Shown in pieces: positions 22,244-37,089 of a DNA stretch of 64,000 nt. The notes under the pieces were generated by a model. The model ran no database searches, was not told where the DNA came from, and worked only from the letters and a program-made list of their open reading frames with translations. The position numbers and the translations under genes were made by a program. Numbering within the stretch: position 1 is the first letter of the stretch; each line of letters opens with the position of its first letter. Where the stretch lies: the NCBI RefSeq assembly GCF_055900595.2, contig NZ_CM148325.1; one strand, written 5' to 3'.

Positions 22244-22252
22244 TGTTAAGTG
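22244..22252. repeat. 9-bp target-site duplication TGTTAAGTG, left copy
   Basis: identical 9-mer at 23582-23590 immediately after the IS10 inside end. Confidence 0.9.
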
Positions 22253-23581
22253 CTGATGAATCCCCTAATGATTTTTATCAAAATCATTAAGTTAAGGTAG
22301 ATACACATCTTGTCATATGATCAAATGGTTTCGCCAAAAATCAATAATCAGACAACAAAATGTGCGAACTCGATATTTTACACGACTCTCTTTACCAATT
22401 CTGCCCCGAATTACACTTAAAACGACTCAACAGCTTAACGTTGGCTTGCCACGCCTTACTTGACTGTAAAACTCTCACTCTTACCGAACTTGGCCGTAAC
22501 CTGCCAACCAAAGCGAGAACAAAACATAACATCAAACGAATCGACCGATTGTTAGGTAATCGTCACCTCCACAAAGAGCGACTCGCTGTATACCGTTGGC
22601 ATGCTAGCTTTATCTGTTCGGGCAATACGATGCCCATTGTACTTGTTGACTGGTCTGATATCCGTGAGCAAAAACGGCTTATGGTATTGCGAGCTTCAGT
22701 CGCACTACACGGTCGTTCTGTTACTCTTTATGAGAAAGCGTTCCCGCTTTCAGAGCAATGTTCAAAGAAAGCTCATGACCAATTTCTAGCCGACCTTGCG
22801 AGCATTCTACCGAGTAACACCACACCGCTCATTGTCAGTGATGCTGGCTTTAAAGTGCCATGGTATAAATCCGTTGAGAAGCTGGGTTGGTACTGGTTAA
22901 GTCGAGTAAGAGGAAAAGTACAATATGCAGACCTAGGAGCGGAAAACTGGAAACCTATCAGCAACTTACATGATATGTCATCTAGTCACTCAAAGACTTT
23001 AGGCTATAAGAGGCTGACTAAAAGCAATCCAATCTCATGCCAAATTCTATTGTATAAATCTCGCTCTAAAGGCCGAAAAAATCAGCGCTCGACACGGACT
23101 CATTGTCACCACCCGTCACCTAAAATCTACTCAGCGTCGGCAAAGGAGCCATGGATTCTAGCAACTAACTTACCTGTTGAAATTCGAACACCCAAACAAC
23201 TTGTTAATATCTATTCGAAGCGAATGCAGATTGAAGAAACCTTCCGAGACTTGAAAAGTCCTGCCTACGGACTAGGCCTACGCCATAGCCGAACGAGCAG
23301 CTCAGAGCGTTTTGATATCATGCTGCTAATCGCCCTGATGCTTCAACTAACATGTTGGCTTGCGGGCGTTCATGCTCAGAAACAAGGTTGGGACAAGCAC
23401 TTCCAGGCTAACACAGTCAGAAATCGAAACGTACTCTCAACAGTTCGCTTAGGCATGGAAGTTTTGCGGCATTCTGGCTACACAATAACAAGGGAAGACT
23501 CACTCGTGGCTGCAACCCTGCTTACTCAAAATCTATTCACACATGGTTACGTTTTGGGGAAATTATGAGGGGATCTCTCAG
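22253..23581 (+). mobile_element. IS10, complete
   Basis: 1329 bp; outside end CTGATGAATCCCCTAATGATTTT at 22253, inside end ...GGGGATCTCTCAG at 23581. Confidence 0.95.
22360..23568 (+). CDS. IS10 transposase
   Basis: 402-aa ORF matching remembered IS10 transposase (MCELDILHDSLYQFCPELHLKRLNS...). Confidence 0.95.
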   Translation: MCELDILHDSLYQFCPELHLKRLNSLTLACHALLDCKTLTLTELGRNLPTKARTKHNIKRIDRLLGNRHLHKERLAVYRWHASFICSGNTMPIVLVDWSDIREQKRLMVLRASVALHGRSVTLYEKAFPLSEQCSKKAHDQFLADLASILPSNTTPLIVSDAGFKVPWYKSVEKLGWYWLSRVRGKVQYADLGAENWKPISNLHDMSSSHSKTLGYKRLTKSNPISCQILLYKSRSKGRKNQRSTRTHCHHPSPKIYSASAKEPWILATNLPVEIRTPKQLVNIYSKRMQIEETFRDLKSPAYGLGLRHSRTSSSERFDIMLLIALMLQLTCWLAGVHAQKQGWDKHFQANTVRNRNVLSTVRLGMEVLRHSGYTITREDSLVAATLLTQNLFTHGYVLGKL

Positions 23582-23590
23582 TGTTAAGTG
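23582..23590. repeat. 9-bp target-site duplication TGTTAAGTG, right copy
   Basis: see left copy at 22244-22252. Confidence 0.9.
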
Positions 23591-32339: not shown

Positions 32340-32984
32340 ACATAAATCCCCACCCGGGGTGAAATCATACACCTCGTGATTGATTCCAACGGGCTAAAAG
32401 TCTTTGGGGAAGGCGAAAGGAAAGCCAAAAAGCACGGCAAAGAGGGGCGTCGCATCTGTCTGTTGATGGCAACACACATGAAATTGTCTGTGCAGACCTG
32501 TCGCTGAACAACGTCACGGACTCAGAAGCCTTCCCGGGGCTTCTCCAACAGACTCACAGAAAAATCATGGCTGCAGCGGTAGACGGGGCTTACGCCCCCC
32601 GACTCTGTCACGATGAACTGAGGCGTAAGAAAATCAGCGCGCTTACCCCTTCCCGAAAAGGTGCGGGTTACTAGCCCGGTGAATACGAAGACCGTAACCG
32701 TGCAGTGGCTAATCAGCGGCTGACCGGAAGTAATGCCCGGTGTAAATGGACAACAGATTATAACCGTCGTTCGATAGCGGAAACAGCGATGTACCGGGTA
32801 AAACAGTTGTTCGGAGGTTCACTGACGCTGCGTGACTACGATGGTCAGGTTGCAGAGGGTATGGTCATGGCGCTAGCGCTGAATAAAATCACGAAAGTAG
32901 GTATGCCTGAGAGCGTGCGTATTGCCTGAAAGCACAACTAGCTACGGGGCTCTTACCCTAAATCAGATTTTTTCAACAAAGCCC
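32340..32984 (+). pseudogene. IS903-like (IS5-family) element, 3' part with frameshifts and terminal inverted repeat
   Basis: C-terminus ...AETAMYRVKQLFGGSLTLRDYDGQVAEGMV...GMPESVRIA; terminal IR GGGCTTTGTTGAAAAAATCTGATTTAGGG on the opposite strand. Confidence 0.7.
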
Positions 32985-33226
32985 AACTGGTATTAGAAAA
33001 CCTGTTGAATATTTAATACAACCATGTTAAATAAAAGAAATAAAGAACTGTTATATCTATTTTCTTAATGGTGAATCATTCAGCAATACCGAATAAAGTA
33101 GAATAGTTTTTAGAAATGCATCACATTTTCTTGTGTATACCCATATAGGAGATGTACATCCATAAAAGATAGAATAATAAAGTTAAATTGCCATGACGAT
33201 AATCACTTTCGAATAGGAGTAAATTA

Positions 33227-33616
33227 ATGAAGAAACAAAAATTCTTTATTGTGAGTTCTATACTTGTAATGTGTTTATCTACCAGTCATATATCTTTGGC
33301 TTCCGGACTGGATAAAAATATGCAGAGCCTTGCAAGAAATATGAGCACTCTACAATCCTCTGGTGATAAAAAATCTCTATTAAATGCTCTTGATATGATG
33401 GACAAAGCTGTAAATGCTTCCATGAATACTCTTCCTGAAAAAATAAACAGCAACGATAAAGTCGCAGTGGAAAGTTATAAGAATGAGTTGAAGAAACTAC
33501 AAAATGAAATCAATCTTGCAAAAGAGAAGGTTGAGTCGGGGAATATAGAGTCACTACGTGATGCTCTGGATAAAATGAATAATATAAAACTGGAAGGCCA
33601 CCGAAAATTCAGATAA
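33227..33616 (+). CDS. cytochrome b562-family protein, divergent
   Basis: 129 aa; signal peptide; predicted mature protein keeps Met7 and a His four residues from the C-terminus (HRKFR), as in cytochrome b562. Confidence 0.55.
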   Translation: MKKQKFFIVSSILVMCLSTSHISLASGLDKNMQSLARNMSTLQSSGDKKSLLNALDMMDKAVNASMNTLPEKINSNDKVAVESYKNELKKLQNEINLAKEKVESGNIESLRDALDKMNNIKLEGHRKFR

Positions 33617-35314
33617 ATAATATTCTATAGAAAAATTTAATTTTATTTCTAAATACGGCAAAGTATTTTACTGTAATTTGCCGTATTTAATAATGTGTTA
33701 AACCTTAAATTATCCAATCCTAATTTAGGAATGCACTCCACGGCCAAACAGTCATACTCACACCTACAACATATAACTATATATTAATTTTATTGATTTT
33801 CCTTCTTGCGTTTACACAAAAACTAACATTATGTGAAACTCCCCTCAGCTTATTTTACAAAATAACATCATGATTAAGTAAATCGGTGAATTTGCTCCTA
33901 TATGTCCAGACATCTGTTATCACTTACCCTGTTACGGCCCTTCAACAGCAGAAGATTCAGGGGTAGTCTAAGCGCTAAGAACACGTTCCCGAAAATTGAG
34001 GTAAACACGTTATGACAGCAACGTAAAATAAAACAGAGAACGTGCAGCGTTTTTTTAGTCATAATGAACATGTAGAGTCCGTTTGTTCATACTCTGTGGT
34101 TATCTTCAAGCGTTCATCCCTGGCGCTGCCAGATAGCGTTTTCGTTCTTACAGTCAATGCGCACCCGATACTGAATATCGGCTTTATTCCCCCTGGCGGT
34201 GAGATGCGCTGTGACTAAATTATCACCTTTACTTACCAGCTCACGAAGATTCACCCAGACAACAGGACGCTGCTGACTGAGGAGCACCTAGTCATCTTTC
34301 CTGTGAAGCACCTGTTTCTGGAGATAGTTCCGTTTGACGCTGGCTGAAACAGCCGATGCTTCCTGCCCTTCACATCGTGGAAAACTGACGGTTCTTTTTT
34401 ATCAGCAGCCAGTGATGATGCACAGATACCGAAGATGAGCAGAATTGAAGAGAGTGTTTTGTTCATTTACAGAATCCCATCATGGATAGCTTATTGCAAA
34501 GTTATACTTTAACAACACAAAATATCATTTTTTGAAACAATATTCACATAACTGCTTATCCCGTCACTTCCCGTTTTATATCGGCAGCACCGTCTGTCTT
34601 TCCTATTGATGCGATTCGTATAATTTATTTTACCCATGAGAAACTCACATTTAAATTTATGAGATGTAATATATGAAGAATAAGGAAATATCCGGATAGG
34701 TGGGTTGTGAAAAAGTTAGCGGCAATAACTTAACTACAATAACCGGCACGTTTTCAACGCTGGCGCAGGCAAGTGCGGACAAAACGGGATTCTTTATCAC
34801 GGGTAAAACTTGTGCATCTGTGACGGTATTAATCCTGTTCATCATGATGCCTCTGTACAAGAAAGCTATGCTGTGCCTCCGGATTATTACGGCCAGTAAT
34901 ATTAGGTATTATGAGGCTCTCAACCGAAAAATCAGTGCACGACATTTTGAGGGCATTTCCCAGTGGCTTACTGGTATAAGATCATGATATTACTGCATTT
35001 GATCCTGCTGCTAAAACTAATCGGGACACGGTTTTTATGATTTTTGACGGAAGCAGGTATATTCCTCTGAGCGTCCTGAAATCGAAGGATTTTATTTTCC
35101 TGGAAAATAAGTAAATCATCTGATAAAAACAATATATTCACAAAGGATAAAATTATTTTGATAAACAGTCGGAAATATTAAAAGTGTCTGTTGTATTCTC
35201 ATTGTCCATTATTCCCTGATTACATAGTAGAATACCCGGAGCCAGACATATCCTAAACCGCCCTGTTTTTACTCGGGGTATATTTACTGTATAACTAACT
35301 GGTGATAATGCTTT

Positions 35315-36157
35315 ATGTTGAATGCAAGACATCTTCCCGTACTGATGTACCATCATGTCAGTCGCTGTCCGGGGCTTGTGACACTTTCACCTGAAATATT
35401 TTGTGAACAGATAGAGTGGCTCGCAAAAAATAACTGGCGGACAGTAACATCCGCTGAACTTTAATATTTTTATCAGGGGGGAATGCTTCCAAGAAAGAGC
35501 TTCATGATTACATTCGATGACGGATATCTTGATAACTGGTTCCGGGCATGGCCGGTACTGAAGGAATACAATCTTCATACGCATATTTTTCTCATTACAG
35601 GGTTGATTGGTGACGGGAAGGTGCGTTACAGACAGAAACGGGAATATTCGCATCGCGACTGTGAGCAGTTGATTGCAGATAACCGTTCCGATGAAGTGAT
35701 GCTTCGCTGGTCTGAAGTCCGGGAAATGCGTGATTCCGGTCTTGTTGAATTCCATTTACATACCCATTCACATAAACGCTGGGACAGACTGTCTGTACCA
35801 CGTACTGAGCAGTGCCGACTCATGGAAGAAGCTATTATGACAGGCAAACAATGTCTGAAGGAAAAACTGGGATACTGTAGTCCCCATCTATGCTGGCCTG
35901 CAGGATATTATAGCAGAGATTATATTAATCTCACCAGAGAACTTGGTTTATCTTATTTATATACAACGGAAAGAAGAATGAACTGCCCTGTAAAAGGTTC
36001 ATTACTTATAGGACGTATTAGTACAAAAGAACGGGAATATTGCGGTTGGCTGAAACGGTGCCTTTTTATTATATCACGCCATTTTTCTCTTCATTACTGG
36101 CTCTTCATAAGGGGCCAAGATTACCAGAGAATTAATAATGAAGATTTTATTCACTGA
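35315..36157 (+). pseudogene. polysaccharide deacetylase (NodB-domain) with in-frame TAA at 35462-35464
   Basis: LPVLMYHHVS and ITFDDGY motifs in the same frame, separated by a single stop codon. Confidence 0.6.
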
Positions 36158-37080
36158 GTCTTCACCAGATATTGGTGGCCAGGAGTTACAGGCTCTGGCA
36201 CAGATGACAGCGCTCCAGAAACAGGGGCATTCTGTTTTACTCGCCTGCAGGGAAAAAAGTAAAATAGCTCATGAAGCCAGAACAATCGGACATGATGTTA
36301 CTTTTATTCCTTTCAGGAACAGTCTTCACCTTCCTTCCATCATCAGACTGCGGCAGGTAATCCGGTAATTCAGACCTGATCTGGTAATCTGCCACAGTGG
36401 TCATGACAGTAACATTGCAGGCCTGAGCCGTCTGATATGCTGGCATCGTTTCTGTATTACACAGAGAAGTCAGGCAACAGTTACCTCCGCATATTCAGGG
36501 ATGGACAGAATCAGCGGGCAATATCCCGCTGATTGTCCAGGTGGGTATGTTGCGTCCCGAGAAAGGGCATGAATTTATGCTCCGGGTGTTGCACCAACTG
36601 AAGATGGAAGGGAAAGTATTTCGATGGCTCGTGGTGGGCGCTGGTCGTGAGGAATACGAAGAACGCCTTCGCCTGCAGATTGAATCACTGGGAATGAGTG
36701 GTGATGTTTTCATGGCTGGTGCTGTTTTCCCGGCGTTACCGATATACCGGGTTGCCAGTGTGCTATCATGCCTTCTGAAAAATGAGGCATTTGGCATGGT
36801 CCTGGCTGAAGCGTCAGCCTCCGGTGTTCCCGTTATTGCCAGTGAGACTGGCGGGATCCCGGATGCCATTCAGAAAAATGTGACAGGAACACTTTTACCT
36901 GTGGGAGATATGACTGCATGGACCAGTGCGCTTCGGGATTTTTTGTCCCGCCCGGAACGCTTCAGGATGATGGTTGCCAGCGCCAGAGAAGATATCGAAT
37001 ACCGGTTTAATATCAACAGAACGGTACAGACCATTGTGTCTCTGGCTCATCAGACCGGGGGAAACGCAACAGGTAACTGA
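36138..37080 (+). pseudogene. GT4-family glycosyltransferase, disrupted (TAA at 36366, internal deletion, frameshift)
   Basis: N-terminal MKILFTESSPDIGGQE; C-terminal RPEKGHEFMLRV and E-x7-E-like region; intervening segment too short and out of frame. Confidence 0.6.
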
Positions 37081-37089
37081 GGAACTCAT

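What the first reader, a model, noticed from the sequence alone, without database searches (positions are those of the whole stretch)
33000..33700. Divergent cytochrome b562 homolog with conserved haem ligands in AT-rich DNA
ORF 33227-33616 encodes a 129-aa protein with a signal peptide (cleavage after ISLA). The predicted mature protein aligns end to end with cytochrome b562 (about 104 vs 106 residues), keeping Met7 (SGLDKNM) and the histidine four residues from the C-terminus (HRKFR), but is otherwise strongly diverged and Lys/Asn-rich. It sits alone in an AT-rich islet beside an IS903 remnant. A second, xenologous b562-like protein of unknown function would be unusual.
Basis: partly seen in the sequence, partly recalled or inferred. 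Interest (0 to 1): 0.55.

Follow-up and report, generated by a model that had tools for sequence, protein, structure and literature searches.

The report
Accessory cytochrome b562 gene, island-borne
The ORF is a real, exported cytochrome b562-family haem protein carried as a lone gene on a decayed E. coli genomic island, but it is already annotated as such and belongs to a common group of mobile-element b562 genes whose nearest relatives sit next to the periplasmic catalase-peroxidase KatP.

Summary
ORF 33227-33616 (+) encodes a 129-aa protein with a Sec-type signal peptide and a 104-residue mature domain. That domain matches Pfam Cytochrom_B562 end to end (E 7.7e-16) and models as a confident four-helix bundle that superposes on PDB 256B (TM 0.90, rmsd 1.4 Å). 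It keeps both haem ligands (Met32 = Met7, His125 = His102) and the pocket residues.

It is not new. The identical protein is RefSeq WP_001354052.1, "cytochrome b562", found in 27 of 5,426 complete E. coli genomes. Canonical cybC is in 5,425 of them, so this is a true second copy.

It is also not unusual. Related accessory b562 genes occur on 586 plasmid records. Its sister clade (pO157 L7018 and relatives) lies 29-54 bp downstream of the exported catalase-peroxidase KatP, and 468 plasmids carry that pair intact. The window allele and a 71%-identical ColV-plasmid allele are lone ~570-bp modules with no katP, under purifying selection (dN/dS about 0.25).

Best reading: a periplasmic haem-b electron carrier descended from a KatP-partnered lineage. 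A role in peroxide defence is inferred, not shown. Interest is low to moderate.

The parts
33227..33616 (+). Coding sequence of the 129-aa cytochrome b562-family preprotein (identical to RefSeq WP_001354052.1)
   Evidence: ORF list; Pfam PF07361 E 7.7e-16; annotated 'cytochrome b562' in 27 complete E. coli genomes
33227..33301 (+). Sec-type signal peptide, residues 1-25, with predicted cleavage after ISLA
   Evidence: Sequence features, plus alignment of the site with the CybC cleavage site; pLDDT below 50 for residues 1-24. No dedicated predictor was run.
33302..33613 (+). Mature four-helix-bundle domain, 104 residues (helices 28-44, 48-66, 78-103, 107-128 in preprotein numbering)
   Evidence: AlphaFold2 model with mean pLDDT 83 and blocks of 87-97 across residues 31-129; Foldseek against 256b_A gives TM 0.90, rmsd 1.4 Å
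33320..33322 (+). Codon for Met32 (mature Met7), the predicted axial haem ligand
   Evidence: Aligned with b562 Met7; the column is Met in 28 of 29 family members
33599..33601 (+). Codon for His125 (mature His100), the predicted axial haem ligand, equivalent to b562 His102
   Evidence: Invariant column, 29 of 29
33215..33219 (+). Shine-Dalgarno sequence AGGAG, 7 nt upstream of the ATG
   Evidence: Read directly from the sequence; largely conserved in allele B as AGGAA
33650..33689 (+). 3' stem-loop (13-bp core stem) that marks the end of the conserved gene module; probably the transcript 3' end or a stability structure. It has no U-tract.
   Evidence: RNA fold -20.7 kcal/mol, z = -4.6; conserved in allele B with a compensatory change, GGCAAA/TTTGCC versus GGCAAT/ATTGCC
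33123..33693 (+). The ~570-bp single-gene module shared with the ColV-plasmid allele: about 100 bp upstream, the CDS and the hairpin. Homology stops on both sides.
   Evidence: blastn gives 77% identity over 33136-33687 only; pairwise alignment; nothing else is shared between the two contexts
32349..32983 (+). IS5-family (IS903-like) transposase pseudogene and its right end, which forms the left border of the AT-rich islet
   Evidence: NF033579 E 1.8e-13 on ORF 32705-32929; RefSeq pseudogene mapped from L001. The terminal-repeat resemblance to IS903 is from memory.

Best explanation
The gene encodes a Sec-exported, soluble periplasmic cytochrome of the b562 family. It is a four-helix bundle that binds one non-covalent haem b through Met32 and His125, and it most likely acts as a small one-electron carrier.

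It is an accessory paralogue, not the cybC orthologue. It belongs to a fast-evolving, low-GC clade found only in Enterobacteriaceae and carried on mobile elements. The sister lineages of this clade are encoded immediately downstream of an exported KatP-type catalase-peroxidase. The window allele has lost that neighbour. It now travels as a ~570-bp stand-alone module (own RBS, own 3' hairpin) inside a decayed integrative island next to ynjA.

The step that is inferred rather than shown is the function. I propose that the clade's ancestral job was to serve the periplasmic catalase-peroxidase, most plausibly by passing electrons to it during peroxide stress, and that the lone copy keeps a related periplasmic redox role with a different or trans-encoded partner.
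For: Identity as a b562-family protein (shown):
- Pfam PF07361 is matched full length, E 7.7e-16, and NCBIfam cytochrome b562 gives E 1.2e-19.
- The AlphaFold2 model is a four-helix bundle with pLDDT 87-97 across residues 31-129.
- All top PDB hits are b562, and 256B gives TM 0.90 and rmsd 1.4 Å.
- Only 3 columns are invariant and 3 nearly invariant across 29 sequences at 21-30% identity. These include both axial ligands plus the pocket residues Met58 (b562 Met33) and Leu91 (Leu68).
- There is no Cys in the mature protein, so the haem would be non-covalent.

Accessory copy (shown):
- cybC is in 5,425 of 5,426 genomes. This gene is in 27.
- The NCBIfam equivalog score of 70.9 is below the cutoff of 130.

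Still functional (supported):
- dN/dS is 0.23-0.27 against the 71%-identical ColV allele.
- The gene is intact and at least 99.7% identical in all 27 genomes.

Clade and context (shown):
- In the NJ tree, the window, ColV and Klebsiella alleles form a 100% clade. Its sister (91%) is L7018, P0055 and a Salmonella allele, and the two together have 100% support. Canonical CybC falls in a separate 100% clade.
- A ~730-738-aa PF00141 peroxidase with a signal peptide, 73-87% identical to KatP, lies 29-54 bp upstream on the same strand in L003, L005, L006-L010 and L012.
- 468 plasmids carry katP plus b562 contiguously.

Functional link in relatives (literature):
- The Y. pestis katY-cybC-cybB operon was verified by RT-PCR (PMC2231364).
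- In Y. pseudotuberculosis, cybB and cybC are induced 6.7-7.5 log2 by H2O2 together with the catalase-peroxidase (bioRxiv 10.64898/2026.03.04.709318).
- The L7018 protein was detected and rose 6.3-fold in vivo (PMC3686733).
Against: - No haem binding, redox activity or expression has been shown for this protein.
- There is no katP or katP remnant in the window, or beside the ColV or Salmonella alleles (tblastn). No cybB was found in any fetched locus. The proposed partner is therefore absent in cis.
- Whether the 27 host strains carry a KatP-type enzyme elsewhere was not tested.
- Other b562-family genes sit in unrelated contexts: an F-type leading region, an ICE, and beside DsbC. KatP linkage is therefore not a family-wide rule.
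- The outgroup node that supports an ancestral katG linkage has only 53% bootstrap.
- The surrounding island is full of pseudogenes, so this gene could be a passenger.
- No convincing sigma-70 promoter was found directly upstream.
- The Met-His geometry of the model could not be measured, because no coordinates were available to me.
Confidence: 0.8

Rival explanations
1. It is a periplasmic haem-binding protein that acts as a haem buffer, store or donor rather than an electron carrier. For example, it could hand haem b to Sec-exported apo-enzymes such as KatP, or sequester scavenged haem in iron-limited hosts.
For: - KatP-type partners carry Sec-type signal peptides with no twin arginine, so by inference they must acquire haem b in the periplasm.
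- Y. pestis CybC rises under iron starvation and is listed as Fur-associated (PMC2835676).
- The window island carries the siderophore receptor gene iha and iron-transport remnants.
- The b562 partner evolves much faster than KatP: about 30-60% identity against 74-87%. That fits a loose, low-specificity interaction.
Against: - The Fur-box-like sequence at 33192 matches only 14 of 19 positions. It occurs in 12% of shuffles of the islet and is not conserved in allele B.
- Bis-ligated Met/His haem in b562 is tightly bound and is the classic arrangement of an electron carrier (established knowledge).
- No haem-transport genes lie next to any family member examined.
Confidence: 0.12
2. It is a functionless passenger. 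The gene is a relic of a broken katP-b562 pair that persists on a decaying island and is silenced in AT-rich DNA, with no current role.
For: - The island is rich in frameshifted genes and IS elements: the YebF-like gene, the deacetylase, GT4, the ABC transporter and the ICE genes are all pseudogenes.
- There is no partner gene in cis and no clear promoter.
- Only 0.5% of E. coli genomes carry it.
- The near-identity among the 27 copies may reflect recent spread rather than selection.
Against: - The ORF is intact in all 27 genomes.
- dN/dS is about 0.25 across the deep A-B split, where dS is 0.6, and both lineages are lone genes.
- The haem ligands and pocket are retained.
- The RBS and the 3' hairpin are conserved, the hairpin with a compensatory change.
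- The lone allele B is kept on many ColV-type plasmids.
Confidence: 0.06
3. It is a haem-free four-helix bundle that has been put to another periplasmic use, such as metal binding or protein-protein interaction, and keeps Met and His only by descent.
For: - Overall identity to b562 is only 19-21%.
- The charge is reversed: pI 9.2 against 5.4.
- b562 Tyr101 is replaced by Gly, and Phe61 and Phe65 by Tyr and Leu.
Against: - The replaced residues are in fact the family-majority residues at those columns: Gly in 14 of 29, Tyr in 26 of 29, Leu in 17 of 29.
- The two ligand columns are among only six invariant or near-invariant columns.
- pI varies from 4.8 to 10 across the family with no pattern.
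Confidence: 0.02

Closest known systems
E. coli soluble cytochrome b562 (CybC; PDB 256B; Pfam PF07361)
   Same: - Same fold: TM 0.90, rmsd 1.4 Å.
- Same length class and a signal peptide cleaved at the equivalent position.
- Met/His axial ligands and pocket residues in the same columns.
- No Cys, so non-covalent haem b is expected.
   Different: - Only about 20% identical, and below the NCBIfam equivalog cutoff (70.9 against 130).
- Falls in a separate, 100%-supported clade.
- Accessory (27 of 5,426 genomes) rather than core (5,425 of 5,426).
- Low GC and carried on an island, rather than lying between pmbA and nrdG.
- Basic rather than acidic.
pO157 L7018, the 'putative cytochrome b562 family protein' encoded downstream of katP (WP_001172748.1)
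   Same: - Sister clade, with 100% joint bootstrap.
- About 50% identity, same 129-aa length and same 104-residue mature domain.
- Low GC and carried on a mobile element.
   Different: - L7018 lies 47 bp downstream of katP with a GC-rich hairpin in the spacer, and travels with katP on 468 plasmids.
- The window gene has no katP or katP remnant.
- L7018 is acidic, pI 4.8.
- L7018 has been detected as a protein (PMC3686733). The window protein has not.
Yersinia katY-cybC-cybB operon (exported catalase-peroxidase, b562, b561)
   Same: The architecture in which an exported KatG-type enzyme is followed by a b562-family gene matches the window gene's sister lineages. The operon is co-transcribed and peroxide-induced (PMC2231364; bioRxiv 2026.03.04.709318).
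   Different: - No cybB follows in any E. coli, Citrobacter or Salmonella locus examined.
- The window gene has neither neighbour.
- The position of Yersinia CybC in my tree was not determined.
ColV/APEC-plasmid cytochrome b562 (WP_000595317.1, for example on p1ColV5155)
   Same: - Closest relative: 71% amino-acid and 77-80% nucleotide identity.
- The same lone single-gene module, including the upstream region and the 3' hairpin.
- Both alleles occur in the same strain at least once: strain 135.
   Different: - A different replicon and different flanks: LysR and an fdrA/arcC cluster on one side and IS3 on the other.
- Near-neutral pI of 6.1.

Membership tests
Cytochrome b562 family (Pfam PF07361) | Significant full-length match to the family profile | tested here: met
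   PF07361 E 7.7e-16, 59.0 bits, residues 28-129 against model positions 2-102 of 102
Cytochrome b562 family (Pfam PF07361) | Up-down-up-down four-helix bundle that superposes on a solved b562 structure | tested here: met
   AlphaFold2 model with four helices and pLDDT 87-97 across residues 31-129; 256b_A TM 0.90 and rmsd 1.4 Å over 104 columns, and all top hits are b562
Cytochrome b562 family (Pfam PF07361) | Axial haem ligands Met7 (helix 1) and His102 (helix 4) present at the equivalent positions | tested here: met
   Met32 and His125 align with Met7 and His102 in HMMER and MAFFT alignments. The His column is 29 of 29 and the Met column 28 of 29. The S-Fe-N geometry in the model could not be measured, because no coordinates were available.
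Cytochrome b562 family (Pfam PF07361) | N-terminal signal peptide, so a soluble periplasmic protein | tested here: met
   n/h/c regions are present, with an S-L-A -3/-1 site in the same alignment column as the CybC cleavage site; the region is disordered in the model. This rests on inspection only, since no SignalP-type tool was available.
Cytochrome b562 family (Pfam PF07361) | Actually binds one non-covalent haem b and is redox active | not testable with these tools
   There is no Cys or CXXCH motif in the mature protein, and the pocket residues are conserved. Binding itself needs spectroscopy.
CybC orthologue (NCBIfam NF011632 equivalog) | Score above the curated equivalog cutoff (130 bits) | tested here: not met
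   70.9 bits. The protein falls in a separate clade from CybC, and cybC is present as well in essentially all genomes.
KatP/KatY-associated b562 gene pair | Groups phylogenetically with the b562 genes encoded downstream of katP | tested here: met
   100% bootstrap for the joint clade with L7018 and P0055
KatP/KatY-associated b562 gene pair | Encoded immediately downstream of an exported KatG-type catalase-peroxidase, on the same strand | tested here: not met
   tblastn with KatP finds nothing in the window or beside alleles B and D. The upstream neighbour is an IS5-family remnant.
Integron gene cassette (considered because of the single-gene module with a 3' hairpin) | An attC site with conserved R''/R' cores (RYYYAAC ... 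GTTRRRY) at the cassette boundary | tested here: not met
   GTTAAAC at 33698-33704 is not conserved in allele B, and homology ends before it.

The most novel reading that the evidence does not exclude
The mobile, low-GC b562 clade may be a set of dedicated periplasmic partners for Sec-exported KatP-type catalase-peroxidases, either as reductants or as haem donors. That would give the b562 family its first physiological role. On this reading, the lone copies (this island allele and the ColV-plasmid allele) are kept under purifying selection, and sometimes co-occur in one APEC/ExPEC strain, because they have been rewired to a different, still unknown periplasmic redox partner.
Probability: 0.2. 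Interest if true: 0.55.

Novelty: already known. Interest (0 to 1): 0.27.

Why it matters
As a gene call it adds little, because RefSeq already names this exact protein cytochrome b562.

The useful part is context. Cytochrome b562 is one of the most heavily used model and engineering proteins, for example as the BRIL fusion partner and in metal-directed protein assemblies. Even so, a 2012 paper still describes its cellular function as unknown (PMC3349551).

This gene's closest relatives form a tight, widely spread pair with the exported catalase-peroxidase KatP on EHEC plasmids, which mirrors the peroxide-induced katY-cybC-cybB operon of Yersinia. That gives a concrete hypothesis that can be tested cheaply: b562 serves as a partner of a periplasmic peroxidase. 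The lone alleles then act as natural 'partner-less' controls. If the hypothesis is wrong, the gene is simply one more accessory cytochrome on a decaying island.

Tried and rejected
1. **katP remnant.** I looked for a katP remnant upstream of the window gene, the ColV allele and the Salmonella allele. tblastn found none. The only hit was a chance signal-peptide similarity at 34333-34467, E 0.36.

2. **Fur box.** The sequence at 33192 matches the Fur consensus at 14 of 19 positions. A match at least that good appeared in 12% of shuffles of the islet, and the site is not conserved in allele B, so I rejected it.

3. **Integron attC.** The 3' hairpin is not an attC site: the core is not conserved and homology ends before it.

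4. **Charge reversal.** I tested whether a basic pI marks the lone-gene lineage. Allele B has pI 6.1 and the family ranges from 4.8 to 10, so it does not.

5. **Shared conjugative-element context.** I looked for shared context between alleles A, B and the F-plasmid gene P0069, such as ssb or ProQ/FinO. No DNA homology exists beyond the gene module.

6. **cybB downstream.** I probed for cybB with a sequence recalled from memory. tblastn found no hit in any locus or in the window. This is a weak negative because the probe was from memory.

7. **Genome-wide pattern scan.** It was replaced by eight contig look-ups.

8. **L011.** The ORF upstream of P0064 in L011 is not KatP-like.

9. **Promoter scan.** It found no sigma-70-like site directly upstream of the ORF.

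10. **Literature.** Searches found no open-access paper proposing a b562-KatG/KatP partnership. This is absence within that library only.
Full report
**1. The observation**

An AGGAG ribosome-binding site lies 7 nt upstream. The ORF sits in a ~1-kb stretch of 29-34% GC between flanks of about 50% GC.

The N-terminus, MKKQKFFIVSSILVMCLSTSHISLA|SG, has the n/h/c layout of a Sec signal peptide. Its S-L-A site falls in the same alignment column as the known cleavage site of CybC. The predicted mature protein has 104 residues, is rich in Lys and Asn, contains no Cys and has a pI of 9.2.

The left neighbour, ORF 32705-32929, is the C-terminus of an IS5-family transposase, which RefSeq annotates as a pseudogene. 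The specific IS903 name rests on my recollection of its terminal repeat and was not tested.

**2. Is it a b562?**

Yes, by every test available.

- Pfam PF07361 is matched end to end (E 7.7e-16).
- The NCBIfam cytochrome b562 model gives E 1.2e-19. At 70.9 bits it stays under the 130-bit equivalog cutoff, so the protein is a family member but not the CybC orthologue.
- A direct sequence search of the PDB finds only b562 chains, at weak E-values from 5e-4 upward. Met7 and His102 align to Met32 and His125.
- An AlphaFold2 model built from a 29-sequence alignment is a four-helix bundle with block-mean pLDDT of 87-97 from residue 31 to the C-terminus.
- Foldseek against the PDB returns b562 structures throughout the top ranks. 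256B gives TM 0.90 on the target and rmsd 1.4 Å over 104 columns.
- Across 29 family members that share only 21-30% identity with the query outside its own clade, three columns are invariant and three nearly so. These six include both axial ligands and two pocket residues, Met58 (b562 Met33) and Leu91 (b562 Leu68).
- Where the query differs from E. coli b562 in the pocket (Phe61 to Tyr, Phe65 to Leu, Thr97 to Ile, Tyr101 to Gly), it carries the residue that is the family majority.

I could not measure the Met-His geometry in the model or test haem binding.

**3. Already known, and not rare**

The 1.2-kb region is 100% identical in 26 complete E. coli genomes and 99.7% identical in one more, out of 5,426. 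There it is annotated as 'cytochrome b562', WP_001354052.1. Canonical cybC is present in 5,425 of 5,426 genomes, so this is a true second b562-family gene.

A more sensitive DNA search finds related copies in 152 genomes, with 128 of the 175 places on plasmids. A protein search of PLSDB finds the subfamily on 586 plasmid records.

A search of 1.84 billion cluster representatives shows that the subfamily is narrow. It consists of the query cluster, a 71% cluster, a 49% cluster, some fragments, and then ordinary b562-like proteins at about 30%. Every named member comes from E. coli, Klebsiella, Salmonella or Citrobacter and is called cytochrome b562.

**4. Context**

In the window the gene lies in a decayed integrative island. 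The island carries iha, ICE gene remnants, PhoX, IS elements, an ssb fragment and a PerC-family gene. It ends with an integrase next to ynjA.

The 71% allele sits on ColV/APEC-type plasmids, between a LysR-regulated metabolic cluster and an IS3 element. The two contexts share only about 570 bp: roughly 100 bp upstream, the CDS and a 3' hairpin. The hairpin (33650-33689, z = -4.6) carries a compensatory change between the two alleles. Homology ends right after it, which fits a self-contained transcription unit.

**5. The informative relatives**

- The ~50% allele on pO157-type plasmids (L7018) lies 47 bp downstream of katP on the same strand.
- P0055 (49%) lies 39 bp downstream of a 737-aa PF00141 peroxidase.
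- P0063 (29%) lies 54 bp downstream of a 730-aa peroxidase.
- P0065 (Citrobacter, 27%) lies 29 bp downstream of a 738-aa peroxidase.

All four peroxidases carry Sec-type signal peptides and are 73-87% identical to KatP. In PLSDB, 468 plasmids carry katP plus b562 as one contiguous unit.

In a neighbour-joining tree, the window, ColV and Klebsiella alleles form a 100% clade. It is sister to the L7018, P0055 and Salmonella clade (91%), and the two together have 100% support. The next outgroup (P0063 and P0065, both katG-linked) joins with only 53% support. Canonical CybC sits in a separate 100% clade. The simplest reading is that the lone state of the window allele is derived from a katP-b562 pair, but that inference rests partly on the weak node.

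Other family members are not katG-linked:

- P0069 lies in an F-type leading region.
- P0067 lies in an ICE.
- P0066 lies next to a DsbC-like gene.
- The Salmonella IncF allele lies near sodC, with no katP.

**6. Literature**

- The Y. pestis katY-cybC-cybB operon was confirmed by RT-PCR (PMC2231364).
- In Y. pseudotuberculosis, cybB and cybC are induced 7.5 and 6.7 log2 by H2O2, alongside the catalase-peroxidase (bioRxiv 10.64898/2026.03.04.709318).
- Y. pestis CybC rises under iron starvation (PMC2835676).
- L7018 has been detected as a protein in O157:H7 and was 6.3-fold higher in piglets (PMC3686733).
- b562 is described as a soluble cytochrome of unknown function in a 2012 paper (PMC3349551).
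- I found no open-access paper proposing a direct b562-KatP partnership.

**7. Is the lone copy alive?**

dN/dS between the window allele and the ColV allele is 0.23-0.27 at dS of about 0.6. The ORF is intact in every complete genome that has it. The ligands, the pocket, the RBS and the hairpin are all conserved. At least one strain (135) carries cybC, the island allele and the plasmid allele together.

These facts argue against a dead passenger, but expression has not been shown. The promoter scan found nothing convincing directly upstream.

**8. Mechanism**

Shown: this is a b562-family fold with conserved haem ligation residues and an export signal, it is an accessory copy, and it belongs to a clade otherwise linked to KatP.

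Inferred: it binds haem b in the periplasm and shuttles single electrons, and the clade's original partner was the exported catalase-peroxidase. The partnership could work by donating electrons for the peroxidatic cycle, or less likely by supplying haem to an enzyme that is exported unfolded.

For the window copy the partner is unknown. No katP or cybB is present in cis, and I could not test whether one is present in trans.

**9. Verdict**

The gene is already annotated and belongs to a common class of mobile b562 paralogues, so the finding is ordinary. The one lead of wider value is the conserved katP-b562 pairing in its sister lineages. That pairing offers a direct experimental route to the unresolved function of b562.

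Noticed in passing
window 34114-34466 (-): A YebF-family gene is split by a frameshift. The signal-peptide part is ORF 34251-34466. The C-terminal part is ORF 34114-34287, which hits NF041240 YebF (E 1.2e-11). RefSeq annotates only the 57-aa C-terminal piece, as an intact 'YebF family protein'.
   Followed up: partly
L003:7955-8000, L005:5963-6000, L006:5948-6000: The short katP-b562 spacer keeps a GC-rich hairpin whose sequence differs in each lineage: GAGGGAGG/CCTCCCTC, CAGGGGGAG/CTCCCCCTG and TTGGGGAGG/CCTCCCCAA. None has a T-run. The structure is conserved while the sequence changes. It may be an RNA processing or stability element, or a partial terminator that sets the katP:b562 ratio.
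   Followed up: no
L014:5001-5384 (Salmonella F-type plasmid) and L013:5001-5390 (ICE): b562-family genes from the canonical-CybC clade also occur as lone cargo on conjugative elements. One lies in an F-type leading region between SLT/TraM and PsiA/PsiB/ParB/SSB. Another lies beside TraU/TraG. A periplasmic cytochrome is an odd thing to find in a leading region.
   Followed up: no
NZ_CP080260.1 / NZ_CP080263.1 (strain 135) and other chromosome-plasmid pairs with consecutive accessions: Some APEC-like strains carry three b562-family genes at once: core cybC, the island allele and the ColV-plasmid allele. Only strain 135 is confirmed by name. The other pairs are inferred from adjacent accession numbers.
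   Followed up: partly
window 35315-37565 and 37631-38818 (-): There is a run of pseudogenes (a PgaB/IcaB-like polysaccharide deacetylase, a family-4 glycosyltransferase and a phosphoethanolamine-transferase fragment). It is followed by an integrase that abuts ynjA (39006-39554), which marks the right end of the island.
   Followed up: partly
window 22252-23582: About 1.3 kb is present in the window but absent from the otherwise near-identical island of strain NRZ14408 (L001). That island instead has two IS1414 copies and an ISEc12 element inserted between the IS5 remnant and the b562 gene. The island is being actively reshuffled by IS elements.
   Followed up: no
L004:5827-8000 (Salmonella IncF plasmid): The Salmonella member of the KatP-linked clade has no katP. 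It lies about 1.7 kb from a plasmid-borne sodC (periplasmic superoxide dismutase), and the gap between them is unannotated. This is another hint of a periplasmic oxidative-stress role.
   Followed up: partly
window 33302-33613: The mature window protein is basic (pI 9.2, net charge +3). By comparison, L7018 has pI 4.8, CybC 5.4 and the ColV allele 6.1. The charge flip happened within the lone-gene clade and could reflect a change of partner, but pI varies widely across the family.
   Followed up: partly
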